Shown: in pieces, positions 30,992 through 57,556 of the stretch
Layout: each line of letters starts with the position of its first letter
Numbering within the stretch: the stretch's first letter is position 1
Source of the DNA: a virus
Lineage: Duplodnaviria; Caudoviricetes
Length of the DNA: 64,000 nt
Direction: 5' to 3' (one strand)
IMG/VR virus record: IMGVR_UViG_3300037041_001875
Span: 1,600-65,599 of that record
Notes under the pieces: generated by a model
Seen by the model: the letters and a program-made list of their open reading frames with translations, nothing else
Databases searched by the model: none
What the model was told of the DNA's origin: nothing
Program-made: the position numbers and the translations under genes

Positions 30992-31335
30992 TTCCACTTA
31001 TCCCCTTCCAAGACCTGCTCGTGATAACCCTAATTGCCGTGGGATTCTCATTCGTTGTGACTGGTTCCACGATAGGATATCCCATCCGTTTCGTGGCCTA
31101 TAAGGCCCTCGGCTGGATAGGCTCAAGCCCCATTTGGCTCGATAGCATCGCTCGTTGCCCGTACTGTCACGCATGGTGGCAGGGGCTCGGGTGGGCTTGG
31201 TACACCGGACACGGATTCTGGGAATCTCTTCAGGCGGCTTTCGCCGCATGCGGAATCGCCGCCATAGTACAAGCTCAGTGGTCACTCGCAGCAGGGAAAG
31301 AAAGCTACGTCAGGGAAGGGCGCAAAAATGTCTAA
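30988..31335 (+). CDS. Membrane protein with CxxC (DUF1360-like)
   Basis: TM helices and CPYCHAWW. Confidence 0.65.
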   Translation: MIPLIPFQDLLVITLIAVGFSFVVTGSTIGYPIRFVAYKALGWIGSSPIWLDSIARCPYCHAWWQGLGWAWYTGHGFWESLQAAFAACGIAAIVQAQWSLAAGKESYVREGRKNV

Positions 31336-33139
31336 AGTCAGCAAAGAAGAGGTCTTGAAGGCCTTGGGCACGGCCCAATTGCAGGGCGTCAAAGAGGCCG
31401 TCAAAGAGCAGACCAAGGAGATGGGCATGCTCAGCGGGATGATGCCGGGAAGGGCGAATCCCGTGGTCACAGGGGCCTTTGAGCAGGTCGCTCAGCAGGC
31501 CACAGCCGTGCGGCTCAACATCCAACGGCGAGATCCAGTCTCGGGCAAAATGACGTATATCAGAGGCCCTGGCGAAATCGACGCCAACCTCATCGCCAGC
31601 AAGGGCCTGCCCGAGATTATTGATGACTGGTGCGGCGGCGGCGAGTACACCGTCGAGGTCATGGCGCCCGGTCAAGAGCGCCTCATGCAGAACTTCACGG
31701 TCGGCGGGGCTCCGCAAGATCCTGGCTATCGAGCGAAGACTGCCGTTGCCGGCGGGGTTCCGGTCAATCAGGCCTATGACCCCTCGCACTACTTCGGCGT
31801 GCCGAGGCCGATGTACGCATCTCCGCAAGACAACTCGAGCAATATGGCCGTCAAAATGATGGAAATCATGATGGCCAAGGAAATGATGAGTGCCAAACTG
31901 GGCAGCGTATCCAACGCAGGTCAAGCCTCGTCCGAGGTCCAAGAGCTCCGCGCCGAGCTCGCTCGCATGCGGGATGACCAGAAGCGCGCCGAAGAAGATC
32001 GCCGCCGCACCGACGAGATGGAACGCTTGCGGCGCGAGGCGGCCGAAGACCGGCGCAAGTCCGAAGAGCGCTTCGAGAAGCTGCTCTCCGAGATGCACAA
32101 GGACAAGACCCCGGCGTGGGTAGGCCTGGCACAAGCGGCGATGCCTGCGCTTGCCGAAGTCTTCAAGGGCAAGGACGCCACAATGGGCCTGCTCTCGAAC
32201 ACGTTCGGGACCGTCTTGCAAGCGCAGCAAATGGCCGCACAGCAGCAGTCTGAGACCTTCAAGATGCTGTTGAACCGGCCCACGGCTACGGACGAAATCT
32301 CGAAGATGACCTCGGTCTTCGCACAGAGCCAGCTCACGAACTTGCAAACCATCAACCAGATCGTGAGCTCAGGCCTGCTCGACAAGGGCGGCGGACACCC
32401 GCTGGTCGAGCTCCTCTCGCAGATCATCGACCAGGGCGGGCAAGTGCTTCAGGCCGGTCTATCGGGCAAGCAGGCGGCCGCAGGCAACATCGCCGGCATA
32501 GAACCGGAACCGGCTCCAGTGCTCCCACCTCGAGCAAGCTCTGAGGTTCCGCAGTTGCCGGCGCCCAAGGACACCCAGAAGCAATATGACCTAAACGCCG
32601 ATCCCTCGTTTCGGGTTATCATCGAGCAGATCAAGGGCAACGGCGATCCACGAGAGATTGCTCTGAGACTCTATCGCCACGGACAACCCCTTCGAGAAGA
32701 CCAAGGGCACCCGTTGGCGAAGTCTTGGTGTCGAGATCCTGAGAGTTACTCACGCCTCGTGCTCAGCCAGCTAGGTGTGCCTGACGCACGCATTCAGCAG
32801 ATCACAACGGCGCTGGTAGACCTCGCGCTGTGGGTCAAAGATGGCCGTGACCCAGAGGAATTCGCCAAGGTCGAAACACGCCGACGTCGACGCAAGAGGT
32901 TAGTGCCTTCAGCATCACCAGAGATGCAAGCGACACACGGCTTCTCGTTCAACCCTGACGAGCTTGATGATAGCGCCGAAGAAGAGTTCTACGAGGACGA
33001 CGACGGCGATGATGAACTGAGCAGAAGTCTCGAAGACGACGAGCTTGACGGTGAGGACGATGCACAGCAACAAGAGATGAGCTCGGTCATCGCAGAAGAG
33101 GCTCGGGCCGCCGAGGCTTCTTCAGTTGCGGAGTCGTGA
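31328..33139 (+). CDS. Large coiled-coil protein with acidic tail (putative virion/assembly protein)
   Basis: 603 aa, strong codon bias, E/R coiled coil, RRRRRKR then D/E-rich tail. Confidence 0.8.
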   Translation: MSKVSKEEVLKALGTAQLQGVKEAVKEQTKEMGMLSGMMPGRANPVVTGAFEQVAQQATAVRLNIQRRDPVSGKMTYIRGPGEIDANLIASKGLPEIIDDWCGGGEYTVEVMAPGQERLMQNFTVGGAPQDPGYRAKTAVAGGVPVNQAYDPSHYFGVPRPMYASPQDNSSNMAVKMMEIMMAKEMMSAKLGSVSNAGQASSEVQELRAELARMRDDQKRAEEDRRRTDEMERLRREAAEDRRKSEERFEKLLSEMHKDKTPAWVGLAQAAMPALAEVFKGKDATMGLLSNTFGTVLQAQQMAAQQQSETFKMLLNRPTATDEISKMTSVFAQSQLTNLQTINQIVSSGLLDKGGGHPLVELLSQIIDQGGQVLQAGLSGKQAAAGNIAGIEPEPAPVLPPRASSEVPQLPAPKDTQKQYDLNADPSFRVIIEQIKGNGDPREIALRLYRHGQPLREDQGHPLAKSWCRDPESYSRLVLSQLGVPDARIQQITTALVDLALWVKDGRDPEEFAKVETRRRRRKRLVPSASPEMQATHGFSFNPDELDDSAEEEFYEDDDGDDELSRSLEDDELDGEDDAQQQEMSSVIAEEARAAEASSVAES

Positions 33140-33142
33140 GCC

Positions 33143-33355
33143 ATGGCGGTCAACATCGACCGCGGACAGATTTCGGTGCGCTTGACGGACGACCAAGCAC
33201 GCGCCCTCGAGCGGTATCGGGTAACGCTTCAGAAGAGAATCCGATGCCACGCCCCCGGGTGGTCATGCAGTTCGGCACATGCGATCCGCGATCTGATTTT
33301 GAGAGGATTGAAGACCGAAGGCCTCATTCCTGACGTTGTAGAACCCCCAGAATAA
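33143..33355 (+). CDS. Ribbon-helix-helix protein
   Basis: ISVRLTDDQ...SSAHAIRDLI. Confidence 0.6.
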   Translation: MAVNIDRGQISVRLTDDQARALERYRVTLQKRIRCHAPGWSCSSAHAIRDLILRGLKTEGLIPDVVEPPE

Positions 33356-33480
33356 TGGTTTCCACTAGTTAACGCTCAACATCCCCCTGTTAACTCCCAC
33401 CTACAACCGCCCAATATAATTGCGGTTTCATTGAACACACTGGAAAACCTAAGTATTCAAAAACACCCAAGATTTAGCTA

Positions 33481-33508
33481 TTGACCACTAAATAGCTAGT
33501 TGTAGTCT
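33481..33508 (+). promoter_or_regulatory. Promoter of the structural operon
   Basis: TTGACC-16 bp-TAGTCT. Confidence 0.5.
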
Positions 33509-33516
33509 GCCAGTGT

Positions 33517-34104
33517 ATGAGTCTATCTGGCAGAAGGATTGTCGACGCGCAATTCGGGACGGCCGAAGTTCACGATGTCTATTCGCTCAACGACCGTTTA
33601 TCCCTCATCAACGGTCAAGTTTTCAAAAGCCTGCGAGACCCTTCCATACGCGCCCTTGCGTTAGACCTCGTTCGAGGCACCCCGCAACATGGCAATGAAT
33701 CCGAGCTGTCTGAACTGTCAAGAGTCTTCTGGTTCGTCAAGAAGAACGTTGAATACAGGCAAGACCCACACCAGTACGATTTATACTCTACAGCTTCTAG
33801 GACCATCCAAGTGCATGCCGGGGATTGTGACGATCACTGCACGTTGATCGCTGCCTTAGTTGGAAATCTTGGATTCATTCCAGGGGCTAAAGTGATTTCA
33901 CCGGATGGAGCTAACTGGCACATTTACGCGCTAACTTCAGTGTTTCCGCGTAGCAACCCGCAAGCTCCCACGGCAAGATACCTAGCTCTCGACACCACAC
34001 AACCACTGAGTCATCCAGGTTGGGAACCTCCCGCGAAGTTCCAACGCTATGCACGGGTGGTCACGTTCACTGAAAGCGGGCCACTGGTCCAAACCGTGAG
34101 GTAA
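33517..34104 (+). CDS. Transglutaminase-like (Cys-His-Asp) protein, candidate maturation protease
   Basis: VEYRQDP, GDCDDH, WHIYA, LALDTT. Confidence 0.85.
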   Translation: MSLSGRRIVDAQFGTAEVHDVYSLNDRLSLINGQVFKSLRDPSIRALALDLVRGTPQHGNESELSELSRVFWFVKKNVEYRQDPHQYDLYSTASRTIQVHAGDCDDHCTLIAALVGNLGFIPGAKVISPDGANWHIYALTSVFPRSNPQAPTARYLALDTTQPLSHPGWEPPAKFQRYARVVTFTESGPLVQTVR

Positions 34105-34106
34105 TC

Positions 34107-35024
34107 ATGGAATATCATCGTTTCATTACGGACCCCAGTCGAACATTGTCTGCGGCAGATCGCATGGATGTGTTCGGCGGCGGGATGGACCCTGCGGGCC
34201 TCGGCACTTTGGGAGCTCCAGTGAATCCAGCGCACGTCTTTGAGTACCTCGGCGAGAATCTCCCGCCCTCGGGGAATCCGAAGGAGATCATCGGGCGCGG
34301 CGGGGATCGTTGGAGTCGGGGCGCTCAGGATATCTACGGTGGCAAGTATATCACGGAAACGCAAGACCGTCTCTCGCCCAACACCAAGACGATCACCGTC
34401 GAGGATGCGAAGCCGGTCGTCATGCGACCAGACGAGCTCACTGAGATCAAGAACAACTCGCAGATCGTTCGGGAGATGACGCAGAACATCGGCTCAGTTC
34501 GAATGTTCGCTGCTCGTCCGAATGCGAACGTGCTCGCTGAGCAGGTCAGTGCCGATGCCGAGGCGCGTAACGTTCAGGACCAAGCTGTCGCGCTCGTTTA
34601 CGAGAGCCAGATGGATGCCATTCGAGCGACGCACCTGGGTGCTCGAGCTCGAGGCGCTGCTCTTCGCGGTGAGACCATCGGCGCATTGCCCACGGTGTCT
34701 CTAAATCGCAAGTTCTTGCCGACAACGAATATCGTTCGCATGCAAGCGCCAGTTCTCATGAAGACTATGGTGACACTCTACCCCGCGGGGAAGGCGAGCT
34801 CCCCACCGGCCGGTAGCAGTGACCCCGCACCAGTGTCTTTCACGACCGGCGAGAACATGTCCTTGGCCACCTTCCCCACAACCTCGAACGGCTCGTTTTC
34901 AGCCGAAGAGGCCGGCATGGGGGAAACCTACGTGGACACGCGCTTCGAGCCCACGAAGATTGCCTTGATTCTCGGTGGCGTCGCAGTCGCGGCCCTTGCC
35001 GCCTACTTTTTCATGAGGCAATAA
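34107..35024 (+). CDS. Putative virion membrane protein (C-terminal TM)
   Basis: IALILGGVAVAALAAYFFMRQ. Confidence 0.7.
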   Translation: MEYHRFITDPSRTLSAADRMDVFGGGMDPAGLGTLGAPVNPAHVFEYLGENLPPSGNPKEIIGRGGDRWSRGAQDIYGGKYITETQDRLSPNTKTITVEDAKPVVMRPDELTEIKNNSQIVREMTQNIGSVRMFAARPNANVLAEQVSADAEARNVQDQAVALVYESQMDAIRATHLGARARGAALRGETIGALPTVSLNRKFLPTTNIVRMQAPVLMKTMVTLYPAGKASSPPAGSSDPAPVSFTTGENMSLATFPTTSNGSFSAEEAGMGETYVDTRFEPTKIALILGGVAVAALAAYFFMRQ

Positions 35025-35027
35025 CCC

Positions 35028-36005
35028 ATGAAGACCTGGGTATGGATTGTCGGTGGAGTTGGCGTTGCGGCTGGCGCGTGGTGGTATCTCAAGGGTCGCA
35101 ACTCTGCAACGACCGAGATGAGTTACCCCGAAGGCGTGGTCCCTGGTGTAACTCCTGGTTATCCTCTTGCTCCTAGCGTCGATGAGCTCCCGCCTGACGT
35201 TGCTCAACAAGAAACTCCAATGGGAGGATCGAATGCTCCACAGCAATCCTCTTCGCAAGCGTCCGCGTTCAGTCCTGTGGCTATGGCAAGCTCCGCTTCA
35301 AGCAGCGGCTCGCCATATGCCGTGGGCACCGGAAACGGATCAACCACAACGTCGACGACGACGGCGCCAGCGACAACAAGCCTGCTGAAACGTGCTCCCG
35401 TGCGGGTCAAGGCTGTGCCCCCGAGGCCTATGGTAGTGGTTACGCCGATGGCAGTAGCGCCAAAGGTTACTTCAATAGTAGCAACAAAACCAGTGGCAGT
35501 GTTTGAGCCAAAGGTTACGCCGATGGCAGCAACAGAACCGGTGGCGGTGTTTGCTCCAATGGTGCCAATAGCGGCACCAGTGTCCGTGCCGACACCAATG
35601 TTCGCGCCAAAGCCGGTGGTTACCGCCGAAGCTGTAGCTCCGACTGTAGCTCCGACTGTAGCAGCTCCATTGGTGAAACGTGAACTGGTGCCGGTTATGG
35701 TCACGACCTACCGAAGTCCGGTGACGAGCGCCACGCGGACGGTCGTCGTTCCGATGGTGAAGGCTCCAAGTCCGACTGTTGTCGCTCCGAGGCCGAAGAG
35801 CCCAACGCCGACCGTGGTCACTCCTTTGACCAGGCCACTGGCCGTGGTCCGACCGACGAATCTTCGAGGCGTCTATGCTGTGGGAGCCGACTTCACCGAA
35901 GCCGAGTATCGCGCTATGGGAGTTCGTGCCGAGCTCGAGACGCGGCGGCGTGAGTGGGCAGCAAATCAAATGTCTGAACAGACAAATGCAATGGCAAGGA
36001 GATAG
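35028..36005 (+). CDS. N-anchored P/V/T/A-rich membrane protein
   Basis: WVWIVGGVGVAAGAWWYLK plus low-complexity stalk. Confidence 0.7.
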   Translation: MKTWVWIVGGVGVAAGAWWYLKGRNSATTEMSYPEGVVPGVTPGYPLAPSVDELPPDVAQQETPMGGSNAPQQSSSQASAFSPVAMASSASSSGSPYAVGTGNGSTTTSTTTAPATTSLLKRAPVRVKAVPPRPMVVVTPMAVAPKVTSIVATKPVAVFEPKVTPMAATEPVAVFAPMVPIAAPVSVPTPMFAPKPVVTAEAVAPTVAPTVAAPLVKRELVPVMVTTYRSPVTSATRTVVVPMVKAPSPTVVAPRPKSPTPTVVTPLTRPLAVVRPTNLRGVYAVGADFTEAEYRAMGVRAELETRRREWAANQMSEQTNAMARR

Positions 36006-36007: not shown

Positions 36008-36295
36008 ATGACACAGAAGAGCAAAAAGTCCTGCAAGTTGACCACGGCAAAAGCCGCAAGAGGAAATTTGGCAGCGGCGCGAGCGCACAAAGCTTTCCAG
36101 GATTGTGCGTCTGGAAAGAAAAGTTGCAGTGCCGCCGAAGAAAAGAAGCTCATGGGGCAGATCAATAAGCTTCACGCTTCTTCCAAAAAGGACACAGACA
36201 AGCTTTGGTTTGTTTGTTCTAAATCAGAATATGACAAGGCAATGAGCGCTTCTCAAAAGCCTGCCGTAGCTTTTTGGAAGAACCTGAAAAAGTAA
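36008..36295 (+). CDS. Lys-rich basic protein
   Basis: Composition; packed in operon. Confidence 0.6.
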   Translation: MTQKSKKSCKLTTAKAARGNLAAARAHKAFQDCASGKKSCSAAEEKKLMGQINKLHASSKKDTDKLWFVCSKSEYDKAMSASQKPAVAFWKNLKK

Positions 36296-36314
36296 GGATT
36301 GGAGAACCCCAACC

Positions 36315-36698
36315 GTGGCTAAAGCTATCACATTGTCTGGAATAGCACAAGCGGCAAACGTCCCTTGGCAGTATCGTGCATGCACGCCCGTCGAGGTCTT
36401 CTCCCCGCCGCTAAACCAGAACGTGACGGTATGCCGTGAGTCGCTTCCAGCGGCCACGCCGACGACGGTTGTGCCAGCGGCACCCATGCCTATGCCGAAG
36501 AAGCGCGGCCGGCCTCGAGGCTCAAAGCCAGGCGCCCTCGATAAGAAGGGTCGACCGATTCATCGGCCGCAGTTCCCGGTATGCTCTCGGTACGAGTGGA
36601 TTCAGACGAAAAAAGGCCTGCGGTGTAAGTGCACTCGCGGTCAAGGAAAGTATGCCCCGAATGACATGTGTCGTCGAGGGTCAAACAACGCGGGCTAG
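36315..36698 (+). CDS. AT-hook basic protein with Cys motif (putative DNA-condensing)
   Basis: KKRGRPRGSK; TKKGLRCKC. Confidence 0.65.
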   Translation: MAKAITLSGIAQAANVPWQYRACTPVEVFSPPLNQNVTVCRESLPAATPTTVVPAAPMPMPKKRGRPRGSKPGALDKKGRPIHRPQFPVCSRYEWIQTKKGLRCKCTRGQGKYAPNDMCRRGSNNAG

Positions 36699-36719: not shown

Positions 36720-37214
36720 ATGGGAAAAGACATGATCGCCCGCAACGACGGGCAAGATGAGTCGGATGGCGATTTCGGTGCGCTCGACATTCAAGTGTTG
36801 AGTGGACTGGACCTCTCTGCTGACAACGTGATCCCGCCGATTCTGGGTGTGGGCGCGGCCGCGATTTCCTCGCTGCTCGTCCGAAAGTTCGTCGCGCACG
36901 AACTGGTCCAGAACTGGGCGGACGCGATTGGCGGTGTGATCGGTGCAGCTCTCTGCATGCCGATCAAATACTGGAAGGGCGACGAAGCCATGAGCTCTGC
37001 CATGGTGTCGTCTCTCGCTTACGGCGTGGTCACAACTGCCGTGAAGAAGCTCGGCCCCATGCTCGGCATCGGCTATCTGGTTCCCCAGATGAGCGGCTTG
37101 GCCATGGAGCGCATGGGCTATCTGCCGCAGATCCCGACCATGTCCGCACAGCAAGCATCTATTCCACGTGAGGTCCGTGCGTCCGCTGACATTTCGGCTT
37201 TCGGCCGTCCGTAG
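36720..37214 (+). CDS. Multi-TM membrane protein directly upstream of the capsid candidate
   Basis: Three hydrophobic helices; AGGAGG RBS. Confidence 0.7.
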   Translation: MGKDMIARNDGQDESDGDFGALDIQVLSGLDLSADNVIPPILGVGAAAISSLLVRKFVAHELVQNWADAIGGVIGAALCMPIKYWKGDEAMSSAMVSSLAYGVVTTAVKKLGPMLGIGYLVPQMSGLAMERMGYLPQIPTMSAQQASIPREVRASADISAFGRP

Positions 37215-37280: not shown

Positions 37281-38000
37281 ATGGCACAGATCAAGAAAAT
37301 CGAGTTCGGCGACGGATCACAAGTAACGATCACTGACTGGGGTGATTACCCCCTCTGGTCGCGCATCTGCGTCGGCGTGAACACGTTCGGCACGGACCAA
37401 GCTTTCTTCCAGTACCAGAGTGGACAGGCGGCGCCTGGCATCACTCTGTCGACTGACCTGGACACGAACATGCTCGCCAACGGCCAGCTCCCGGCGTCGC
37501 ATGAGTTCCTCGTTTACTCGTTCCAGATCATCCCCGACGAGATCCTCGGCGTGGATACGGTCGTAGGCGAGACGACCTACGTGGCCGGTCAGCACCTCCC
37601 CGAAGTGGACGTGACGGCGGGCTTCCAGAAGATGAACCAAATCTTCAACTCGACGCTGTTCCAGTTCCGCATCGAGCAGAGCAAAACCTACGTGGAAGGC
37701 CCCATCGCGTACTTCCCCGCAGGCGGCGGCTCGCACATCGAGCACAACTCGGCTGTGGACGGCCAAGCTTCCGAAGCCGCGGACTACATCGAGGCCTACT
37801 CGATTCACAACGGCCGGCAGGGCTGGGACCACGTCCGTCGCTTGTGGATGCCGATCTACATTGCCGGACTCGAGACCTTCCGGGGCACCCTGCGTGCTCC
37901 TCGTGGAACCGGGTTCAGCACAAACGTTCCCATCGACTGGGACTTCGGCATGGGCTTCACGTGCCGCATGACCGGTCCGCGCAAGCGTCCGACCTACTGA
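37281..38000 (+). CDS. Candidate major capsid protein (single jelly-roll-like)
   Basis: Strong codon bias, beta-strand pattern, TNM..NGQLP, one copy of the module that is duplicated in the next three genes. Confidence 0.55.
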   Translation: MAQIKKIEFGDGSQVTITDWGDYPLWSRICVGVNTFGTDQAFFQYQSGQAAPGITLSTDLDTNMLANGQLPASHEFLVYSFQIIPDEILGVDTVVGETTYVAGQHLPEVDVTAGFQKMNQIFNSTLFQFRIEQSKTYVEGPIAYFPAGGGSHIEHNSAVDGQASEAADYIEAYSIHNGRQGWDHVRRLWMPIYIAGLETFRGTLRAPRGTGFSTNVPIDWDFGMGFTCRMTGPRKRPTY

Positions 38001-50668: not shown

Positions 50669-50854
50669 GTGAAGCTGAAGTGCCCACGGTTGCCGAAGGG
50701 AATCTCGAAGAAGACGCTCGCCGAGGGTGTGAAGGTCGAGCTCGAGCACACGGACGACCGACGAGCGGCGACCTGCATAGCGAAGGTGCACCTCCATGAA
50801 TGCCCGACCTACTACGCTCGCCTCGAGAAGCTCGAGAAGGCCTGCAAGAGATGA
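50669..50854 (+). CDS. DUF5661-like small protein
   Basis: G.KVELEHT...IA..HL.E.P.YY.RL. Confidence 0.72.
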   Translation: MKLKCPRLPKGISKKTLAEGVKVELEHTDDRRAATCIAKVHLHECPTYYARLEKLEKACKR

Positions 50855-51333
50855 ATATGGACCTCGGCAAGACCTACCGCGGCACGCCTGAAGCAAGCCT
50901 CTTGCAGGTGGTCATGGCCAGCCAAGAGCAGATCCGTTCCGAGATCAACAAGCTCGTCCAGGTCACGGCGGCGCAGGGCGCGAAGCTCGAGTCGTTCGAC
51001 AAGCGCTTCGACCTCTTTCAAGACTCGATTGCCAAGCTCTACGAGCACAACAATAATTGCCCGACCAAGACTCACTTGCAAGAGCTTCGCGGTGACGTGT
51101 CGGAGATTCGGGTTATGGTGAGTACACATGATCGCCAGCTTGCCGAAGAGCAGGGCTTCAAGGCCGGCCGGAAGATCAAGCCCACGCCCTGGGCAGGTCT
51201 CTCGAAGTACACAAGCTCGCCACCTGTGACCCTATCGTTGTCCATCAAAGATCCGAAGGTTTGGGGCAAGATCATTTTCTACACCGCTGTAGCAGCGGCC
51301 GCCGCGGCGAGCCTGTTTGCGCAGTACGCATGA
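50851..51333 (+). CDS. Coiled-coil protein with C-terminal TM
   Basis: Heptads then IIFYTAVAAAAAASLF. Confidence 0.65.
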   Translation: MNMDLGKTYRGTPEASLLQVVMASQEQIRSEINKLVQVTAAQGAKLESFDKRFDLFQDSIAKLYEHNNNCPTKTHLQELRGDVSEIRVMVSTHDRQLAEEQGFKAGRKIKPTPWAGLSKYTSSPPVTLSLSIKDPKVWGKIIFYTAVAAAAAASLFAQYA

Positions 51334-51559
51334 GGTGACGCATGGCCGATGAGAACATTCAGAATCGACCCAACAACATGCCGGTGTTCGGAGCTCTGGT
51401 GGGCATCATGGCCTTCTCAGCGTTCACGTATTTCATCATCCAGTGGATGGGATCGGGGATGACTCGTGACTACTAGCAATTGGGGCTTCAAAGATGCGTT
51501 GATTGTGGGCGGCGTTCTGGTGCTCTTCTTCTACGTCGCCAAGACGCGAGGGTGAGTCT

Positions 51560-51934
51560 ATGAAGCTCGACCAGTACATGGCAGAGCGCGGCTATCAGCA
51601 CCTCGTCGATGACTTCTTCATCGACGGTGTGAGGCAACCTGTTTTGCCCGATGAGGCGGTGCTGCTACCGCTCAGCAACTTGAAGGCGGACACCAACGCG
51701 ACGACCGTCTATGACCTGGCCCGAGCCGACTATGGCACCTTCGAGGGTCCGGTAGAGCTCTACGTTTGGCGACAGACCGATGGCTCTGAGCTCGAGTACG
51801 TCACGGTTGCTGGCCAGGCCTTCGAACGACTGCGGTTGTCGGCAACAGAGGCTCGAAACAAGGTTCGCACGCTTCTCCTATTCGCTAGCGGACTAGGATT
51901 GCTCGGCACGGGGATTTACCTCGGCAAAAGGTGA
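51560..51934 (+). CDS. Membrane protein (C-terminal TM)
   Basis: LLLFASGLGLLGTGIYLGKR. Confidence 0.6.
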   Translation: MKLDQYMAERGYQHLVDDFFIDGVRQPVLPDEAVLLPLSNLKADTNATTVYDLARADYGTFEGPVELYVWRQTDGSELEYVTVAGQAFERLRLSATEARNKVRTLLLFASGLGLLGTGIYLGKR

Positions 51935-51937
51935 GTC

Positions 51938-52108
51938 ATGACAGAAGACTCGAAGAAGAACCTTTGGGGCCTGTTGATAGCGGCCGTGGTGATCGGCGTG
52001 TACGAGTACTCACAAAATCGAAGTCGCCAGCTTCAGGAACGGGTCGACGAGTACGAGCGTCGGAAGGTCGAGCGTCAACGGTTTGAGGAACAACTGCCAA
52101 CAGCGTGA
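51938..52108 (+). CDS. 56-aa membrane protein (below ORF-track cutoff)
   Basis: MTEDSKKNLWGLLIAAVVIGVY... Confidence 0.55.
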   Translation: MTEDSKKNLWGLLIAAVVIGVYEYSQNRSRQLQERVDEYERRKVERQRFEEQLPTA

Positions 52109-52205
52109 TGAATAAATAGGATATATTCCCCCTATGGGCGTAAGCATAGCCGAGAGAAGAGTACGAGTCAAGGAAAAAATCGAGTTTGAAAGTGAAAAGA
52201 TGAGC

Positions 52206-52234
52206 TTGACGAGGCAAAACGATGATAGTAGACT
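52206..52234 (+). promoter_or_regulatory. Sigma70-type promoter followed by a ~200-nt structured leader
   Basis: TTGACG-17 bp-TAGACT. Confidence 0.55.
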
Positions 52235-52434
52235 CTCCCACGGGAAGGGTGTTGATAGGATCATCTGCTTGGATGAAGACCTCTCAACTCCCTGTTCTGC
52301 TATGGTAGAGTCGCTCTCCTCGTCTCTCCTCTCTGTCAAGTATCCGAAAAGTTTGGGCAATTACGCCCGCAAGGGTCTCGGGAAGGGTTTATCCTCACGA
52401 GCCCACAACGGCCCATTGGGCAATGAGGTTCATC

Positions 52435-52554
52435 ATGGCTAAGCGTCGTCGCGCTGCTCGCAAGTCCGGTTCCTGCAAGATCGTCACGATGAAGACCGGC
52501 CGTCGCTGCAAGTGCAAGGGCAAGTTTCGGAAGATGTCTTCCTGCAAGCGTTAG
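52435..52554 (+). CDS. 39-aa basic Cys-rich protamine-like protein
   Basis: MAKRRRAARKSGSCKIVTMKTGRRCKCKGKFRKMSSCKR; GAGG RBS. Confidence 0.65.
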   Translation: MAKRRRAARKSGSCKIVTMKTGRRCKCKGKFRKMSSCKR

Positions 52555-52717
52555 GATCGAGGCAGTCAATGGACCGAGAGCGCTCGCTGCTTGAGGCGTA
52601 TCTACAAGGAACGGCCGACCTCATCGTTTGGCTGTTTCCTGCTGTCGTCATGGGCATTGTAGTTGCCCTCGCGCAGCGAGCGCTTTTGGAACCGGCGAAA
52701 TCACGAGGAGAGATGAA

Positions 52718-53068
52718 ATGAATTTTGCGCAACTGGCAATCGCAGTTGTTACGGGCGCTGTTCCTCTCACGGCCAGCTTCTACACCTACGATCGGTTGGC
52801 GGGCTCGAGCTCGTTCAAGCGTTCGGTGTACTCGGCGCTTGCCGGCCTCGGTGCGGGTGTTGTCGCTTCTTTGGCGATGACGCAGCTCATCGGGGTGACC
52901 GCGGAAAATCCCGTCATGACCCTGAACAGATCGCGTAGCAGTGCGATTAGTGGTTTAGTCGATGCGTGGAACGTCAACATGATGCCACCACGTGGCGGAA
53001 TCCCGACGAACGTTTACTCCAAGATGCCCGAGACTGCCGAGGTCGGTAAGTCGTTCGGCGTCGTGTGA
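52718..53068 (+). CDS. Two-TM membrane protein
   Basis: Hydrophobic helices; AGGAG RBS. Confidence 0.6.
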   Translation: MNFAQLAIAVVTGAVPLTASFYTYDRLAGSSSFKRSVYSALAGLGAGVVASLAMTQLIGVTAENPVMTLNRSRSSAISGLVDAWNVNMMPPRGGIPTNVYSKMPETAEVGKSFGVV

Positions 53069-53391
53069 AAGGATCTGATCTCATGATGAAGCTACTCGGA
53101 TTCTTCATGGTCGCGCTTCCCGGCATCGCCGGATTCGCTGCCTATGGTGTGGCTCAGAACAAGGGCATGAACCCCCTCGCCAGTGCCGCTCTTGCCGGTG
53201 CTGCTTTCGCCGCGGCCGAAATCGGCGGCAACATGTTGTCTGGCAGTCTCGCGGGCCTCTCCATGGAGCACGTCGGCGCCATGATGCTGAACCCCCAACC
53301 ACAATCTTGGGCGGCTTTAGACGCGGCTCAGCGCGGCAACATGGGGTATCTATCCCCTGAGCGCATCGCCGCCTGCTACGGAACGTGTTGA
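53065..53391 (+). CDS. Two-TM membrane protein
   Basis: Hydrophobic helices. Confidence 0.6.
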   Translation: MKGSDLMMKLLGFFMVALPGIAGFAAYGVAQNKGMNPLASAALAGAAFAAAEIGGNMLSGSLAGLSMEHVGAMMLNPQPQSWAALDAAQRGNMGYLSPERIAACYGTC

Positions 53392-53392
53392 G

Positions 53393-53737
53393 ATGATTCG
53401 CTCGGCCTTCGTCAGAGCAGTCCCAGTGGTCAGCACTGTGGCCGCCGTGATCTACGCCAAGGAGCACAAGGGCTGGACGTGGGCCATTCCTGCTGGGATT
53501 GCTGCCCACTTTGCCAGCTCTTGGCTCGTTGGGCAGTTGCTTGGAGCTCTCGATGCCGTGCAAGCCATGCCCTTGAAGCCTGCCGAGGTCTCTGGCGGGG
53601 AAGTGAAGATCCCTGCGAGTGGGGCCTCGATGAGCTCGAGTAGTGTGGCCGGCGTTGGAGCTCTAGCGAAAACAACCGATGTGATCGACAAGAATGACAA
53701 CGTGATTCGGCTCCCCACGGCGATGGGCGAGCCTTGA
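53393..53737 (+). CDS. Membrane protein
   Basis: Hydrophobic helices. Confidence 0.6.
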   Translation: MIRSAFVRAVPVVSTVAAVIYAKEHKGWTWAIPAGIAAHFASSWLVGQLLGALDAVQAMPLKPAEVSGGEVKIPASGASMSSSSVAGVGALAKTTDVIDKNDNVIRLPTAMGEP

Positions 53738-53746
53738 AGGTGAACC

Positions 53747-53932
53747 ATGTCTCGAAATCTCCTTCTGTTCTTGGGCCTCGTTGCAGTGAGCGGCGGTGCA
53801 TTCTATCTCTACAAGAGCGGCAAGCTCGTGGGCATGCCTGGACAAATGTCTCAGGGAACGCCTATGCAGGAGTTCAAGCTCGCTAAGCGGTTGCCCATCC
53901 CTATGCCGACACTATCCGGTTACTATTGGTAA
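53747..53932 (+). CDS. Small N-anchored membrane protein
   Basis: LLLFLGLVAVSGGAFYLYK. Confidence 0.6.
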   Translation: MSRNLLLFLGLVAVSGGAFYLYKSGKLVGMPGQMSQGTPMQEFKLAKRLPIPMPTLSGYYW

Positions 53933-53963
53933 GTGAATGAGACTCCCGCCCACGAGGTGACAA

Positions 53964-56111
53964 ATGGCTTTAGATGCAAAAGAAGAAGTTGGAATCGCCG
54001 CGTTAGCCGCAGTCACCGTGGGCGGGTTTGTTTATTACTTATCTAAAAACTCTCCGGGTAACTCTGAAATACTCCAAGCTACAGTAACTAAAGATAAAAA
54101 GAATGTAGTCATTGTTAAATCTGTCCAAGAAATAAAGCCAAAAGATAAAGCTATCTTGGACTGGCAGTTTTCTGCGAAGGTAGCCACTTCAATATACAAG
54201 CCAACACTTCCGACATTTAAAGAGGTGTCTGGATTGTCAAACGAACCGCGCATGAATAGCGGTTTGCTGGGAAAACTTGTTTCAGCTTATTGGGCTTATT
54301 CGCAAACCAGATTATGGTACATGACTCATTGCAAGCAATATCATCCATTCGACGAAACCACGCAATGGTTAGCAAGAGATGCTTCCTATGGCGGTCACGA
54401 TATGAACAAAGCTCATTACAAAGAGCTCATGAAAACAGACCGTGGAACCTGGCCGGTAGGTGTTCCACGGGCCTTTCTCATGAACCGCTTCGAAGGAGAA
54501 AATCCTTCGAAGTTCAACCAATATCGGAGATACACTTCGTTAGATCAAACATTCCCTAATTGGTCCATGCCTTTTGGCGGATTCGACTGCGTTCGAACAC
54601 AAGCATCATTAAAACACTCAAATACTGCTAGTGGCGCGGGCTATAAAAATAGTTGTTGGACTTATTGTGGATGGAGAAGACCTTCGGGGGGGTCAACTTC
54701 CGGGTGTGTTCCTAAAATGTGTCCTAGACCTCTCCCAACAAGATGGTTTTCTCCAATTAATTGGGATATAAAAACAGAAAGAACTGCTGCTTATTTTACT
54801 TATAGAGAGCCTTTTGTTGTAGGAAAGATGTTTGATGGCCAAGTTGTAAGTAATCAGATTGTGGCGACAAGAGGCTATAAGTACCAAGACGGTGCATGGG
54901 AAGATGACAAGGCTTTTGCTGGTATAGTTGAGAAGTATACCTACAACGTTGGGGTTCCTGCAATAGGCGGCTATCCTGGTAGAATATGGGGAAAAATTTC
55001 GATTCCCGAAAGAATGAATGCTAGATACTTAATAAAAGTTCCTAAAGACTTCTCATCAAAATATTCTCTTGCGAACAAGGCAACTAAAGAAGATTCAAAA
55101 AACGTCGAAGATAAATTTATAAAAGAATTGCACCGATATTATCATAGAGGATACAATCTAGTTAATACCTGTTTGGATATTCTGATAGACCGCAAGCATT
55201 TTGATTTGGAGAAAGAGTTTCCAAAATTCGTTAAACATTGCAATTGGTGGTGGATATTCCCACCCAACAAGGCAATGTTAGCGACTATCAAAGATAAAGA
55301 TGGTGAGCTCGTCAGAATGGCGCGCTTTGCTGATATTGGCGGCGGCAATATGGGTCTTAGCGACGTGAAATCTGAATATTTAGTTGACTATGTTATGAAG
55401 CTAACTCCACCGCCGGGAACTATCCCGCCTTGGGAAGACAAAGGTCCGTTATGGTTATGGCCGAGTACGGCAGGACAAATGAGACTGACCGGTGCTCCGA
55501 CCATACCATATCAACCGGCCCCTGGTTCTTATATCACGGGTGGCAGTGACTATCTTAGAAGCGCGGAAACAAATGCTTGGAGTAGTTGGAATAATATGTT
55601 TGAGTACATGTTAACCACTTTAAATGAAGCTATCTATTCTTATGTAATGAAAGAAGCCGGCGGGGCTATTGGAGGATATGTTACCAAAACGGCCGCTGCA
55701 TGGGCAGAAAATGTAGGAATAGATATATTAGAGCAGCTTCAAGATAAGCTTGGAAGCTCTTTTGGTGGTGTAATGGAATTAGGTTCTAAGGTTGCGGCCT
55801 TTGCGGGCCTAGTAGAAAATATTGATATAGCAGACAGTCTAAATAAAACAATAAAGCAGTCTTTCGAGGGAACAGGTTTAAACGCATATGATCTGTTAAA
55901 AAAATATCTGAAGGGAGCCGTTGACGGGATGAATCCAGAGGATCTTCGCAGAGTCCGAAATATGTTAGACCTGGGAATGTCCGAGCTGCGTTCGTGGGGG
56001 TGGCATGATGATCTCATCGGAGAACTTGGTTCAGTAGGTAGTACCTACGGTGACAGAGGTATTAAAGCAATAAAGTCCAAATATGGGTACAACGTCCAGA
56101 AGTTTGGTTGA
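53964..56111 (+). CDS. Large N-anchored protein of unknown function (low GC)
   Basis: 715 aa; N-terminal TM, aromatic/Cys-rich core, helical C-terminus. Confidence 0.75.
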   Translation: MALDAKEEVGIAALAAVTVGGFVYYLSKNSPGNSEILQATVTKDKKNVVIVKSVQEIKPKDKAILDWQFSAKVATSIYKPTLPTFKEVSGLSNEPRMNSGLLGKLVSAYWAYSQTRLWYMTHCKQYHPFDETTQWLARDASYGGHDMNKAHYKELMKTDRGTWPVGVPRAFLMNRFEGENPSKFNQYRRYTSLDQTFPNWSMPFGGFDCVRTQASLKHSNTASGAGYKNSCWTYCGWRRPSGGSTSGCVPKMCPRPLPTRWFSPINWDIKTERTAAYFTYREPFVVGKMFDGQVVSNQIVATRGYKYQDGAWEDDKAFAGIVEKYTYNVGVPAIGGYPGRIWGKISIPERMNARYLIKVPKDFSSKYSLANKATKEDSKNVEDKFIKELHRYYHRGYNLVNTCLDILIDRKHFDLEKEFPKFVKHCNWWWIFPPNKAMLATIKDKDGELVRMARFADIGGGNMGLSDVKSEYLVDYVMKLTPPPGTIPPWEDKGPLWLWPSTAGQMRLTGAPTIPYQPAPGSYITGGSDYLRSAETNAWSSWNNMFEYMLTTLNEAIYSYVMKEAGGAIGGYVTKTAAAWAENVGIDILEQLQDKLGSSFGGVMELGSKVAAFAGLVENIDIADSLNKTIKQSFEGTGLNAYDLLKKYLKGAVDGMNPEDLRRVRNMLDLGMSELRSWGWHDDLIGELGSVGSTYGDRGIKAIKSKYGYNVQKFG

Positions 56112-56159
56112 TTCAAAACAGTAGCCAAACAAGGCTACCACAACTGTAAGAGGTACGTC

Positions 56160-56336
56160 ATGCCAAAGAAAAGAAGCAAAAGACAACCAGGCTACTACTG
56201 CGTCAACACCAAGGCCGCTACCCGTGGCAAGCGCTGCCTGCACAAGGCTGTCGGCGGCGCGGTGCGGTTCGTCAAGTCCGGCAACATCAAGTGCCCGAAG
56301 ACCTGCCGCTCCTACGCGAAGAAGCGTCACGGCTGA
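56160..56336 (+). CDS. 58-aa basic Cys-rich protein
   Basis: MPKKRSKR...KRCLHKAVGGAVRFVKS..KC; GAGG RBS. Confidence 0.65.
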   Translation: MPKKRSKRQPGYYCVNTKAATRGKRCLHKAVGGAVRFVKSGNIKCPKTCRSYAKKRHG

Positions 56337-56348
56337 TCGGAGGTTCCC

Positions 56349-56477
56349 ATGCCCTACAAGTGTGCACCCGTCAAGAACCGCAAGGGCAAGGTTGTCCGCA
56401 AGCAGTGCTACCACATGGTCAACGGCAGGCCCCGTTTCGTCAAAAATTCGACGAAAGGGTGTAGCTGTTCCCGCTGA
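56349..56477 (+). CDS. 42-aa basic Cys-rich protein, paralogue of previous
   Basis: KQCYHMVNGRPRFVKNS..GC; GGAGG RBS. Confidence 0.65.
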   Translation: MPYKCAPVKNRKGKVVRKQCYHMVNGRPRFVKNSTKGCSCSR

Positions 56478-56546
56478 TTTTCACTTTATAGACGTTGACG
56501 CCTACATCCTTCACGGGGTAAGCTCCCCGCAGGAGGAGCGTAGCAT

Positions 56547-56903
56547 ATGTCTATAAATTCATGCCGGCCCAACGTACTCAAGATGACCGCAGGCCAGGCG
56601 AAGAAATTCCTCGAGGCCCAAGACAAACCAACGCTCGTCCAGTTCGCCGCAGATTGGTGCGAGTTCTGCGAAGCCTCGAAGCCGGAAGTCGAAGCGGCCT
56701 CGGCGGCACTGTGTGATCGAGCCCGAGTGGTCCGCGTGAACGTCGATAAAGCTCCCCAGCTCGCGGACAAGTTTGGCGTGAACGCTCTCCCCGATTTCGT
56801 GGTCATGCACCGCGGCAAAGTCGTGGCGCGCATCAAAGGCTATGCGGACCGGAAAACGTTGCTACGAGCGGTTTCTAAGGCCTTGCAGGCGAGGAAACAC
56901 TAA
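56547..56903 (+). CDS. trxA: Thioredoxin
   Basis: VQFAADWCEFC, VNVD, FGVNALP. Confidence 0.9.
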   Translation: MSINSCRPNVLKMTAGQAKKFLEAQDKPTLVQFAADWCEFCEASKPEVEAASAALCDRARVVRVNVDKAPQLADKFGVNALPDFVVMHRGKVVARIKGYADRKTLLRAVSKALQARKH

Positions 56904-57556
56904 TGCAGGTTGCGACATACAAAGGGCCTGCCGGGACGCTTCAGTTGACGGCAAAGGATCGCCTGCTGGCCGCTCGAGGCGTCCTCGGTGAAGGCGACAA
57001 GAACCCGTCGGACGAGGTCATGCGAGCCTACTTGTGGGCCATCATGCGAAGGTGCTTGATACGCGGGACAGTCATTGGTTACGGCACGATGTGGGAGCAA
57101 TTCTCCCAGCCGATCAACCCTGCTTGGCGTGCCGATGGTGTGTTTTGTCGTGAGGGGGGTCTTTATCACGGGAAAGACGAATGCGCAAGCGAAAAATTGG
57201 CTCGGCGCGCAAAAATTTCTGCGACCCCCTGGGATAACATTCCTGTCAAGATCCGAAACGCCGTGGACCAGTTTGCCAGCGGAGCTCTCCCGCCGCCGAT
57301 GACCGAGAGGCTCTTGCCTGCCGGCCGCAACCGCCTGTCGAACTGGGCAAGCTACAAGGGCGTCCGCGAGAAATTCCCGTGGGGCGTGGCCATTGGGGGT
57401 GAGTGGTTCCTCGAGGATAGACCCATGCGAGCTGGCAACGTTGAGATTGTCGGCGTCACAGACGTTGTCGAGCCCTCAAGCATGATCTTGAAGGTTTCTT
57501 CTATCGGTATTGGGATTGTCACTGCTTTAGCGTGGTTGTTCTTCTACCGTAAGTAG
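56903..57556 (+). CDS. SleB-like cell-wall hydrolase candidate with C-terminal TM
   Basis: LLAAR...GEG...WAIMRR...QFS. Confidence 0.5.
   Translation: MQVATYKGPAGTLQLTAKDRLLAARGVLGEGDKNPSDEVMRAYLWAIMRRCLIRGTVIGYGTMWEQFSQPINPAWRADGVFCREGGLYHGKDECASEKLARRAKISATPWDNIPVKIRNAVDQFASGALPPPMTERLLPAGRNRLSNWASYKGVREKFPWGVAIGGEWFLEDRPMRAGNVEIVGVTDVVEPSSMILKVSSIGIGIVTALAWLFFYRK

What the first reader, a model, noticed from the sequence alone, without database searches (positions are those of the whole stretch)
31328..57556. Large tailless, membrane-containing temperate virus with no visible packaging ATPase
Seen: no terminase, portal, HK97 capsid or tail genes. There are more than a dozen small TM proteins, a transglutaminase-like protein, jelly-roll-like proteins and spikes. 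The only P-loops I find are in the replication genes (AAA_24, SNF2, DUF3987). Known: most Varidnaviria encode an FtsK-HerA packaging ATPase, and isolated tailless bacterial viruses have much smaller genomes. Inference: a new ~62 kb lineage with PolA and an integrase that may condense and co-assemble its circular genome.
Basis: partly seen in the sequence, partly recalled or inferred. Interest (0 to 1): 0.85.

Follow-up and report, generated by a model that had tools for sequence, protein, structure and literature searches.

The report
Large tailless jelly-roll virus, no packaging motor
This is the complete 62 kb genome of an uncultured sediment virus whose shell genes look like those of small tailless membrane viruses, yet it has no recognisable DNA-packaging motor, which raises the question of how such a large genome gets inside its shell.

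Summary
The window is one 61,864-bp element wrapped on itself. No terminase, portal, HK97 capsid or FtsK-HerA/A32 ATPase was found. This rests on Pfam for 60 proteins, PHROGs for 20, NCBIfam for 10, and six-frame searches with 7 hallmark families, with a positive control that worked.

The right arm has a conserved core: a transglutaminase-like enzyme, an AT-hook basic protein, a membrane protein, a 239-aa β-sandwich protein, and three paralogues of 290, 291 and 356 aa. The 290-aa paralogue folds with high confidence (pLDDT 86.6). It gives 63 significant Foldseek matches, led by birnavirus VP2, a jelly-roll capsid protein. The three paralogues are predicted to bind each other (ipSAE 0.81, best control 0.54). 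Hydrophobic segments occur in 14 of the 40 right-arm ORFs.

The family has 76 clusters in metagenomes, including a 64-kb contig with the same gene order. It has no detectable relative in 185,579 species genomes, no PHROG, and no paper in 5 searches.

Jelly-roll viruses without a packaging ATPase are already in print (FLiP, SPV1, a metagenomic group; PMC8812541), but SPV1 is only about 20 kbp. Co-assembly, the membrane, lysogeny and the host are inferred only. I rate this a new variant of a known kind, with interest 0.72.

This scan noted the capsid genes before, but only on this same DNA.

The parts
27789..29054 (+). DUF3987 P-loop helicase with a C-terminal winged helix. It is the only P-loop gene that points the same way as the structural genes and lies directly upstream of them.
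   Evidence: Pfam DUF3987 E 1e-12 and MarR_2. L013 has the same position and orientation.
29793..31335 (+). Three small leader ORFs of the rightward module: 257 aa and 160 aa (both Cys-rich) and 131 aa (TM).
   Evidence: Conserved in L019, and the TM ORF also in L013. No real family hit.
31328..33139 (+). 603-aa protein with a charged helical middle and a very acidic tail. Proposed scaffold, size-ruler or chaperone; this role is an inference.
   Evidence: The tail (residues 531-603) has 28 D+E against 2 K+R. It is 29% identical over 589 aa in L019, and a 623-aa counterpart sits at the same position in L013. No Pfam, PHROG or NCBIfam hit. No Walker A.
33517..34104 (+). Transglutaminase-like (papain-fold) enzyme, one of the best conserved genes of the core module.
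   Evidence: Transglut_core at 21 bits, E 4e-4, below the 23-bit cut-off. It is 70% identical in L019, 48% in L013 and 45% in L015.
34107..36005 (+). Two membrane-anchored proteins. The 305-aa protein has a C-terminal TM segment. The 325-aa protein has an N-terminal hydrophobic stretch and is rich in P, T and V.
   Evidence: L013 has counterparts of 329 and 458 aa at the same position.
36008..36698 (+). Two small basic proteins: 95 aa (pI 10.0) and 127 aa (pI 10.5). The 127-aa protein carries an RGRP AT-hook-like motif. They are candidate DNA-condensing proteins.
   Evidence: The 127-aa protein is conserved in L019, L013, L015, L009 and L011, and the motif is also visible in L013. The AT-hook reading is recalled, not tested.
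36720..37214 (+). 164-aa membrane protein directly upstream of the capsid block.
   Evidence: TM segment at residue 36. It is 100% identical in 4 close loci and 26-47% identical in 6 distant ones.
37281..38000 (+). 239-aa β-sandwich protein of single-jelly-roll type. It is a candidate penton or capsid protein and is much better conserved than the three capsid paralogues downstream.
38115..40926 (+). Three paralogous two-barrel capsid-type proteins of 290, 291 and 356 aa, kept in this order in every relative.
   Evidence: hhalign probability 92.7-97.2% between the three families. AF2 of the 290-aa protein: pLDDT 86.6, pTM 0.88. Foldseek gives 63 hits at E<=1e-3, the top one IBDV VP2 at 2.6e-6. 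Predicted complex ipSAE 0.81 against a control of 0.54. 76 clusters in metagenomes.
40881..43757 (+). Block of mostly membrane-anchored proteins, including a PG_binding_1 protein with a C-terminal TM segment.
   Evidence: PG_binding_1 E 5.5e-8. TM segments found. Partly conserved in L013, L017 and L019.
43754..50667 (+). Putative vertex or receptor-binding module: a 507-aa acidic protein with short internal repeats, a paralogue triplet (196, 182 and 181 aa), a paralogue pair (222 and 203 aa), and 226-aa and 467-aa proteins.
   Evidence: BLASTP between paralogues gives E 1e-40 to 7e-10 (triplet) and 9e-30 (pair). No family hits. The 'spike' function is inferred.
50800..57556 (+). Small membrane proteins, a 715-aa protein with an N-terminal TM segment, a thioredoxin, and a 217-aa C-terminally anchored protein.
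   Evidence: Thioredoxin E 1.2e-18.
59077..60117 (-). Tyrosine integrase. This is the only basis for calling the virus temperate.
   Evidence: Phage_integrase E 9.3e-15.
17843..27688 (-). Replication and recombination module of the type seen in tailed phages: UDG-PolA, RNase_T exonuclease, AAA_24, PD-(D/E)XK nuclease, Pyr_excise, Sipho_Gp157 and SNF2.

Best explanation
This is the complete genome (61,864-bp unit) of a member of an undescribed lineage of tailless bacterial viruses.

The shell is proposed to be built from jelly-roll proteins: one 239-aa single-barrel protein and three paralogous two-barrel proteins that assemble into trimer-like capsomers. It probably surrounds an internal membrane that carries the many small hydrophobic proteins encoded among the capsid genes.

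The virus has no terminase, no portal and no FtsK-HerA/A32-type packaging ATPase. The most likely route to encapsidation is therefore not pumping DNA into a preformed shell. Instead the genome would be condensed by the conserved basic AT-hook protein (and the neighbouring lysine-rich protein), and membrane and capsid would assemble around this nucleoprotein. This is the proposal for the archaeal virus SPV1.

The acidic-tailed 603-aa protein may act as scaffold or chaperone. The conserved transglutaminase-like enzyme may act as a maturation or cross-linking enzyme.

Shown here: completeness of the unit, absence of detectable packaging genes, the jelly-roll fold class, paralogy, predicted mutual binding, and conservation of the module.

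Inferred only: the membrane, the icosahedral shell, co-assembly, and the roles of the individual accessory proteins.
For: - Unit and repeat: window 1-2136 is identical to 61865-64000. The first 1,599 bases of the record match window 60266-61864 with 1 mismatch. CheckV completeness is 94%.
- Packaging and tail genes: none found in 60 proteins by Pfam, 20 by PHROGs or 10 by NCBIfam. All 7 six-frame hallmark searches were empty with a working control.
- P-loops: none in the right arm and none in the held flanks of relatives.
- Paralogy.
- Internal duplication: P 6e-4 and 6e-5 in two of the three families.
- Complex: ipSAE 0.81, best of 3 controls 0.54, with the partner touching both other chains. 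Partner pLDDT is at least 73 and the runs share at least 61% of contacts. In the tool's calibration, 58 of 80 solved complexes and 2 of 110 mismatched pairs reached the mark.
- Conservation: the core module is conserved and syntenic in L013, L015, L016, L017, L018 and L019.
- Basic proteins have pI 10.0 and 10.5.
- Precedent for jelly-roll viruses without an ATPase: PMC8812541. SPV1 nucleoprotein core: PMC8459092.
Against: - Foldseek TM-scores are low (0.23).
- No canonical DJR capsid protein aligns over both barrels. Profile comparison with the PM2 P2 family is null in 3 of 3 tests.
- Jelly-roll domains also occur in tail, baseplate and lectin proteins; phage baseplate and fibre chains appear in the same hit lists.
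- The 239-aa model has only moderate confidence (pLDDT 70.7).
- The complex test cannot tell a heterotrimer from homotrimers of paralogues. It used my own alignments and three chains, which differs from its calibration.
- No particle, lipid or expression data exist.
- Only 2 proteins were folded, so an ATPase without a Walker A motif, or a fold that only structure would reveal, is not excluded.
- All cited precedents for motor-less encapsidation have much smaller genomes.
Confidence: 0.5

Rival explanations
1. The virus does pump DNA, but with a non-canonical motor. One of its replication P-loop enzymes (the DUF3987 helicase, AAA_24 or SNF2) or a host translocase would double as the packaging ATPase, much as parvovirus replication helicases also package DNA (this comparison is recalled, not checked).
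For: DUF3987 is the only P-loop gene that points the same way as the structural module and lies directly upstream of it, both here and in L013. A 62-kb genome is large for passive co-assembly. The SNF2 orthologue gives a faint Terminase_6N hit of 11.2 bits, which reflects a shared ATPase core.
Against: These genes sit in, or at the edge of, a typical replication module together with polymerase, nucleases and Sipho_Gp157. DUF3987 has a C-terminal winged helix, typical of initiator helicases. About 740 bp of AT-rich spacer separates it from the first late ORF. No portal-like or unique-vertex protein was recognised.
Confidence: 0.2
2. The particle is not an icosahedral capsid with an inner membrane. 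It would be a pleomorphic or enveloped virion in which the jelly-roll proteins act as matrix, fusion or spike proteins, so no packaging motor is needed.
For: 14-18 of 40 ORFs are hydrophobic. Many proteins are C-terminally anchored. There is no ATPase. The best Foldseek hits have low TM-scores.
Against: Four consecutive, strongly conserved β-barrel genes are present, and they are predicted to form a trimer. The hit lists are dominated by icosahedral capsid proteins.
Confidence: 0.12
3. It is not a virus. It would be a plasmid or other mobile element whose right arm encodes a membrane or surface lectin-like apparatus.
For: No hallmark virion gene is recognised by sequence. Jelly rolls are common in carbohydrate-binding proteins (PMC8812541). 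The element carries an integrase and auxiliary metabolic genes.
Against: No conjugation or partition ATPase was found. The replication module is phage-like, with Sipho_Gp157. The record comes from a virus collection with a completeness estimate. The top structural matches are capsid proteins. The module lies on other virus-collection contigs.
Confidence: 0.08
4. It is an extremely divergent tailed phage whose terminase, portal and HK97 capsid escape all profile searches.
For: The replication genes resemble those of tailed phages. Automatic labels on Atlas clusters read Uroviricota. Phage baseplate and fibre chains occur among the weak fold matches.
Against: TerL is normally the easiest phage gene to detect. 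Here no ORF of 400 aa or more has a P-loop except PolA, SNF2 and DUF3987. All 7 six-frame searches were empty. The conserved core consists of β-barrel proteins, not an α+β HK97 fold.
Confidence: 0.04

Closest known systems
Portogloboviridae (Sulfolobus polyhedral virus 1, SPV1)
   Different: SPV1 has an archaeal hyperthermophile host and a genome of about 20 kbp, against 62 kb here. The host here is bacterial, as the peptidoglycan-related domains indicate. SPV1 is not reported to have three two-barrel paralogues. The structural match is at noise level and there is no sequence similarity.
Double-jelly-roll capsid viruses of bacteria (Corticoviridae PM2, Tectiviridae PRD1; Bamfordvirae)
   Same: Both have a two-barrel capsid-type protein of similar size (PM2 P2 is 269 aa), predicted trimer formation, a neighbouring single-barrel protein, and many small membrane proteins within the structural operon. 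The nearest named Atlas clusters carry P2_N/P2_C at a score of 0.78.
   Different: No packaging ATPase is present here. Profile comparison with the P2 family is null in 3 of 3 tests, and 0 of 58 family members hit P2_N or P2_C. No DJR capsid protein aligned over both barrels. There are three paralogues where these viruses have one MCP. The genome is about six times the size of PM2's 10,079 bp.
Helvetiavirae (Sphaerolipoviridae, Simuloviridae, Matshushitaviridae: SH1, HHIV-2, HCIV-1, P23-77)
   Different: They encode FtsK-HerA ATPases (PMC8812541). Their genomes are 16-19 kb or about 30 kbp (abstracts). Their capsid proteins have a single barrel.
Birnavirus VP2 (with nodavirus and tetravirus capsid proteins)
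   Same: This is the only statistically significant fold match of the 290-aa model (Foldseek E 2.6e-6, probability 0.99). VP2 is a two-β-barrel, trimer-forming capsid protein; that architecture is recalled, not checked.
   Different: These are dsRNA or RNA viruses of animals. TM-score is 0.23, and VIA aligns only 112-113 residues to VP2 residues 200-338. No evolutionary link is implied.
PBCV-1 and other giant viruses with several capsid-protein variants
   Different: PBCV-1 is a eukaryotic giant virus of 331 kbp. Its variants occupy special positions beside one dominant MCP, whereas here all three paralogues are conserved in every relative.

Membership tests
Caudoviricetes (tailed phages) | Large terminase subunit (ATPase plus nuclease) | tested here: not met
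   No terminase family appeared in the Pfam scans of 60 proteins or the PHROG scans of 20. Six-frame Terminase_6N and TerL_ATPase searches gave 0 hits at E<=10. These are sequence tests only.
Caudoviricetes (tailed phages) | Portal protein and HK97-fold major capsid protein | tested here: not met
   Six-frame Phage_portal and Phage_capsid searches gave 0 hits, and the full-library scans listed above found none. The two conserved core proteins that were folded are all-β. The other ORFs were not folded.
Varidnaviria / Bamfordvirae (DJR-MCP viruses) | Major capsid protein with two vertical jelly rolls forming pseudo-hexameric trimers | tested here: inconclusive
Varidnaviria / Bamfordvirae (DJR-MCP viruses) | Profile-profile link to other DJR-MCP families (said in PMC8812541 to hold for all viral DJR-MCPs) | tested here: not met
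   hhalign of A6, A5 and A4 against a 20-sequence PM2 P2 profile gave probability <=0.7% in 3 of 3 comparisons. Only this one DJR family was tested.
Varidnaviria (most members) | FtsK-HerA / A32-type packaging ATPase | tested here: not met
   FtsK_SpoIIIE, DUF87 and Pox_A32 gave 0 hits in six frames. No Walker A motif occurs in the right arm. FtsK gave 0 of 2 in the relatives' records.
Varidnaviria | Single-jelly-roll penton protein | tested here: inconclusive
Portogloboviridae-like (motor-less nucleoprotein-core viruses) | Absence of a packaging ATPase | tested here: met
   As in the rows above.
Portogloboviridae-like (motor-less nucleoprotein-core viruses) | Nucleocapsid protein that coats the circular genome inside a membrane | not testable with these tools
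   The only candidates are the basic proteins at 36008-36698 (pI 10.0 and 10.5). The AT-hook protein is conserved in 5 distant loci.
Portogloboviridae | Sequence or clear structural homology of capsid proteins to SPV1 VP4/VP10 | tested here: inconclusive
Temperate virus | Integrase plus evidence of an integrated copy | tested here: inconclusive
   An integrase is present. No relative was found in 185,579 species genomes with two probes. These are pattern-seeded searches of limited reach. The laid contigs showed no host junction.

The most novel reading that the evidence does not exclude
This lineage would be a previously unrecognised, deep-branching group of bacterial viruses at family-to-class level, possibly outside the existing DJR-MCP assemblage. 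It would build a large capsid from heterotrimers of three paralogous two-barrel proteins plus a single-barrel vertex protein. It would enclose a 62-64 kb genome without any packaging motor, by assembling membrane and shell around DNA condensed by AT-hook and protamine-like proteins. That would make it by far the largest known motor-less encapsidation, and a chimera of a jelly-roll virion module with the replication module of tailed phages.
Probability: 0.25. Interest if true: 0.9.

Novelty: new variant of a known kind. Interest (0 to 1): 0.72.

Why it matters
Tailless jelly-roll viruses of bacteria are known only with small genomes. PM2 is 10 kb, and the archaeal relatives are 16-30 kb (abstracts). 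Almost all of them use an FtsK-HerA motor.

A 62-kb member without any such motor pushes at the assumed size limit of motor-less assembly. It also offers a bacterial counterpart to the archaeal SPV1 model, in which a nucleoprotein core is wrapped by membrane and shell.

Three obligatory capsid paralogues that are predicted to bind each other would be a new way of building capsomers in prokaryotic viruses.

The lineage is not rare. There are 76 clusters at 50% identity, and near-identical DNA occurs in contigs of 4 of 4 laid runs from 4 studies of sediment and other metagenomes. Even so, it is invisible to PHROGs, Pfam and NCBIfam, so current virus-annotation pipelines would leave its virion module blank.

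Tried and rejected
1. A hidden terminase. The one faint Terminase_6N hit (11.2 bits, E 0.004) in the 42-kb relative lies in the orthologue of the window's SNF2 helicase, which is 88% identical. Rejected.

2. A link to the corticovirus MCP P2. This was suggested by the Atlas at score 0.78. Then 0 of 58 family members hit P2_N or P2_C at E<=10. hhalign against PM2 P2 alone was null, and so were the comparisons against a 20-sequence P2 profile in 3 of 3 tests. Rejected at the sequence level. PM2 P2 and PRD1 P3 were not among the top 50 VIA rows, which does not exclude them.

3. The first relaxed P-loop scan with a Walker B filter lost the true positives, AAA_24 and SNF2, so it is uninformative. 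The redo without that filter gave 39 matches, and by eye only AAA_24 looks like a P-loop. My Walker A regex also matched a chance string in SNF2 and not its real motif, so these regex scans are crude.

4. No sequence relation between the 239-aa family and the 290-aa family. BLASTP does not link the three paralogues; only profiles do.

5. Profile searches of PDB sequences with A6 and A2 found nothing.

6. tblastn of the 356-aa protein against 50,697 phage records gave no match.

7. Prophage and host search: 0 relatives in genome contigs with A2 and with A3.

8. The Atlas search with the 603-aa protein returned only unnamed viral clusters.

9. Laid contigs were fragmentary:
- No piece spans the stretch.
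- No host junction was shown.
- A loose end at 60197 is shared by X4 and X5. It may be a mosaic boundary or an att site; this is unresolved.
- Depth over the 3.7-kb repeat region in X2 (50.8-62.2) is not double that outside it (47.6-55). This is a weak hint against a fixed long terminal repeat.

10. Literature: 5 searches listed no paper describing a bacterial jelly-roll virus of about 60 kb without an ATPase. I saw listings and abstracts only, except for passages of PMC8459092, PMC8812541 and PMC9617893. Supplements were closed, so the data sets of the ATPase-less metagenomic DJR group cited in PMC8812541 could not be compared with this lineage.

The record holding L013 is not held, so it was not searched whole.

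12. Only 2 structure predictions were allowed. The 603-, 715-, 507-, 467-, 305- and 257-aa proteins were not folded.

Full report
WHAT THE DNA IS

The two ends of the window repeat each other. Bases 1-2136 are identical to 61865-64000 (over 400 bases; over all 2,136). The parent record is a 65,599-bp virus-collection entry with an estimated completeness of 94%. Its first 1,599 bases equal window 60266-61864 with one mismatch. The record is therefore a 61,864-bp unit with about 3.7 kb of terminal direct repeat, as expected for a circular or circularly permuted genome read past its start. In one run, contig depth over the repeat region is not double the depth outside it. This is a weak hint against a fixed long terminal repeat.

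LAYOUT

The left arm, mostly on the minus strand, carries a replication and recombination module:
- a UDG-PolA fusion
- an RNase_T exonuclease
- AAA_24
- a PD-(D/E)XK nuclease
- Pyr_excise
- Sipho_Gp157
- SNF2

It also carries auxiliary genes: CheR, PAPS reductase, a PLP enzyme and ATP-grasp ligases, and SLT-like and glucosaminidase-like proteins. A DUF3987 helicase on the + strand (27789-29054) comes before an AT-rich gap. After the gap, about 40 co-oriented ORFs run from 29793 to 57556. A tyrosine integrase lies at 59077-60117 on the minus strand.

CHECK OF THE OBSERVATION

Of the 40 right-arm ORFs, 30 were scanned against Pfam. Only PG_binding_1 and Thioredoxin passed the curated cut-offs, and Transglut_core was just below its cut-off (21 against 23 bits). 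PHROGs gave 0 hits for 20 of 20 proteins. NCBIfam gave 0 for 9 of 9 right-arm proteins.

Six-frame searches of the whole record found nothing at E<=10 with any of 7 families: FtsK_SpoIIIE, Terminase_6N, Pox_A32, DUF87, TerL_ATPase, Phage_portal and Phage_capsid. The same tool found AAA_24 at E 2.4e-14 as a positive control.

Classical Walker A strings occur in three real genes, all in the left arm. A relaxed scan added nothing convincing. An earlier, stricter scan lost its own positive controls and is discounted.

Hydrophobic segments are present in 14 of 40 ORFs at the stricter threshold and 18 of 40 at the looser one.

'Spikes' remain untested.

RELATIVES

The 239-aa protein (37281-38000) has 23 homologues at 43-91% identity. 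Loci fetched with that alignment include two informative ones. L013 is 43% identical and lies on a 64,355-bp contig. L019 is 54% identical and lies on a 36.6-kb contig.

tblastn of all 40 proteins against the loci shows a conserved, syntenic core. In order it is: the transglutaminase-like protein (45-70% identical), the basic 127-aa protein, the 164-aa membrane protein, the 239-aa protein, then the 290-, 291- and 356-aa proteins (24-34% identical), then the PG-binding protein and parts of the distal module.

L013 repeats the whole order from DUF3987 onward. It includes a 623-aa counterpart of the 603-aa protein, and it has no ATPase in between.

An exhaustive profile search with the 290-aa family found 76 clusters at 50% identity, 55 of them at E<=1e-30. 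Near-identical DNA occurs in contigs of 4 of 4 laid runs from 4 studies. Seven runs hold at least half of the query's sampled words, most of them labelled sediment metagenome. No relative was found in 185,579 species genomes or in 50,697 phage records.

WHAT THE CORE PROTEINS ARE

The three proteins of 290, 291 and 356 aa are paralogues. hhalign probabilities are 92.7%, 97.2% and 96.4%, with E from 4e-7 to 3e-11. The 239-aa family is unrelated to them by sequence.

Comparing N-terminal and C-terminal half-profiles gives weak but consistent support for an internal duplication in two of the three families: P 6e-4 over 105 columns and P 6e-5 over 112 columns. The third family is not significant.

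With a 58-sequence alignment, the 290-aa protein folds confidently (pLDDT 86.6, pTM 0.88) as an all-β protein.
- Foldseek finds 63 matches at E<=1e-3. The list is led by birnavirus VP2 (E 2.6e-6, probability 0.99, TM 0.23), followed by noda- and tetravirus capsids.
- Every alignment covers only one barrel, and the values sit at the tool's stated noise ceiling.

PMC8812541 (passages) names DUF2961 and PHM as cellular double-jelly-roll proteins, and both appear in my lists.

My reading is that the jelly-roll fold class is well supported for the 290-aa family and plausible for the 239-aa protein. Membership of any particular capsid-protein family is not shown.

PREDICTED ASSEMBLY

The three paralogues were folded together, each with its own alignment. 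The result was ipSAE 0.81 (runs 0.80, 0.86 and 0.81) against a best control of 0.54. The 356-aa partner touched both other chains, its pLDDT was at least 73, and the runs shared at least 61% of contacts. In the tool's calibration, 58 of 80 solved complexes and 2 of 110 mismatched pairs reached this mark. The tool warns that those counts hold only roughly for my own alignments and for three chains.

This supports a trimer-like capsomer. It cannot separate a heterotrimer from homotrimers of paralogues, because close cousins of a true partner also pass.

HOW IT MOST LIKELY WORKS

No motor, portal or terminase is present. Two small basic proteins sit in the core module, with pI 10.0 and 10.5. One carries an RGRP motif that is also seen in L013 and is conserved in five distant loci. 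The 603-aa protein ends in a 73-residue tail with 28 acidic and 2 basic residues.

The simplest model is as follows. The basic proteins condense the circular genome. Membrane proteins and capsomers then assemble around that core. The acidic-tailed protein would act as scaffold or chaperone, and the transglutaminase-like enzyme would mature or cross-link the shell. This is the model described for SPV1 (PMC8459092). SPV1 and FLiP are stated to lack packaging ATPases, as is a further metagenomic group (PMC8812541).

All of this is inference. Only the gene content, the fold class, the paralogy and the predicted binding are shown here.

RIVALS

- A replication P-loop enzyme may double as the packaging motor. 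DUF3987 is the only such gene co-oriented with and adjacent to the late genes, both here and in L013.
- The particle may be pleomorphic or enveloped.
- The element may not be a virus.
- It may be a very divergent tailed phage.

I give these 0.20, 0.12, 0.08 and 0.04.

COMPARISON WITH WHAT IS KNOWN, AND NOVELTY

The element works most like SPV1 and like the ATPase-less jelly-roll viruses. It is not a member of any described family. The defining features either failed (packaging ATPase; profile link to PM2 P2) or were inconclusive (double-barrel geometry, penton). It differs from all bacterial tailless viruses in three ways:
- Genome size: PM2 is 10,079 bp.
- Three obligatory capsid paralogues.
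- A replication module of the kind seen in tailed phages.

Five literature searches listed nothing like it. I rate it a new variant of a known kind.

LIMITS

- Only two proteins could be folded.
- Model coordinates could not be inspected.
- Supplements were closed.
- The host, lysogeny, the membrane and the particle shape remain untested.

Noticed in passing
window 1-2136 = 61865-64000; parent record 1-1599 = window 60266-61864: The parent record carries about 3.7 kb of terminal direct repeat with a single mismatch, yet it is classed 'linear' in its collection. The true unit is 61,864 bp.
   Followed up: yes
window 4001-6000, 14001-16000, 28001-30000, 48001-50000, 54001-56000: Islands of low G+C (0.40-0.43) lie in a backbone of 0.53-0.59. 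They coincide with the + strand cluster at 4.1-7.8 kb, the ATP-grasp genes, the gap after DUF3987, the distal paralogue genes and the 715-aa gene. This suggests mosaic acquisition.
   Followed up: no
window 17843-20353 (-): The family A DNA polymerase is fused to an N-terminal uracil-DNA glycosylase domain and a 3'-5' exonuclease.
   Followed up: no
window 61682-62349: In two of four laid runs (X4, X6), contig depth over this stretch is several times that of the neighbouring bins (88-165 against 6-25). This suggests a segment shared with other abundant elements or strains.
   Followed up: no
window 60136-60197: Contigs of several runs break here, just upstream of the integrase gene. X4 and X5 share the same unlike continuation at 60197. 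It may be a mosaic boundary or an attachment site.
   Followed up: partly
window 45282-46985 and 47975-49267: Besides the three capsid paralogues, there is a second triplet (196, 182 and 181 aa; E 1e-40 to 7e-10) and a pair (222 and 203 aa; E 9e-30) in the distal module. The close relative L001 has two copies of the triplet family where the window has three.
   Followed up: partly
window 33143-33355: A 70-aa protein is nearly invariant among close relatives (93-100% identical). By eye, its N-terminus looks like a ribbon-helix-helix DNA-binding motif. It sits between the 603-aa gene and the transglutaminase-like gene. The motif reading is recalled, not tested.
   Followed up: no
window 704-1759 (-): A 351-aa protein has an N-terminal resolvase/transposase-type helix-turn-helix and a Cys-rich remainder with no family match.
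   Followed up: no
window 7820-8548 (-) and 10772-11599 (-): Two membrane-anchored candidate cell-wall hydrolases give hits below the cut-off: SLT at 20.3 bits and Glucosaminidase at 21.3 bits. Together with PG_binding_1 at 41936-42853, they point to a bacterial host with peptidoglycan.
   Followed up: partly
L021 (relative's record G002, 16282-16479): The SNF2 helicase orthologue gives a faint Terminase_6N match (11.2 bits). This is a reminder that weak terminase hits can come from other ATPases.
   Followed up: yes
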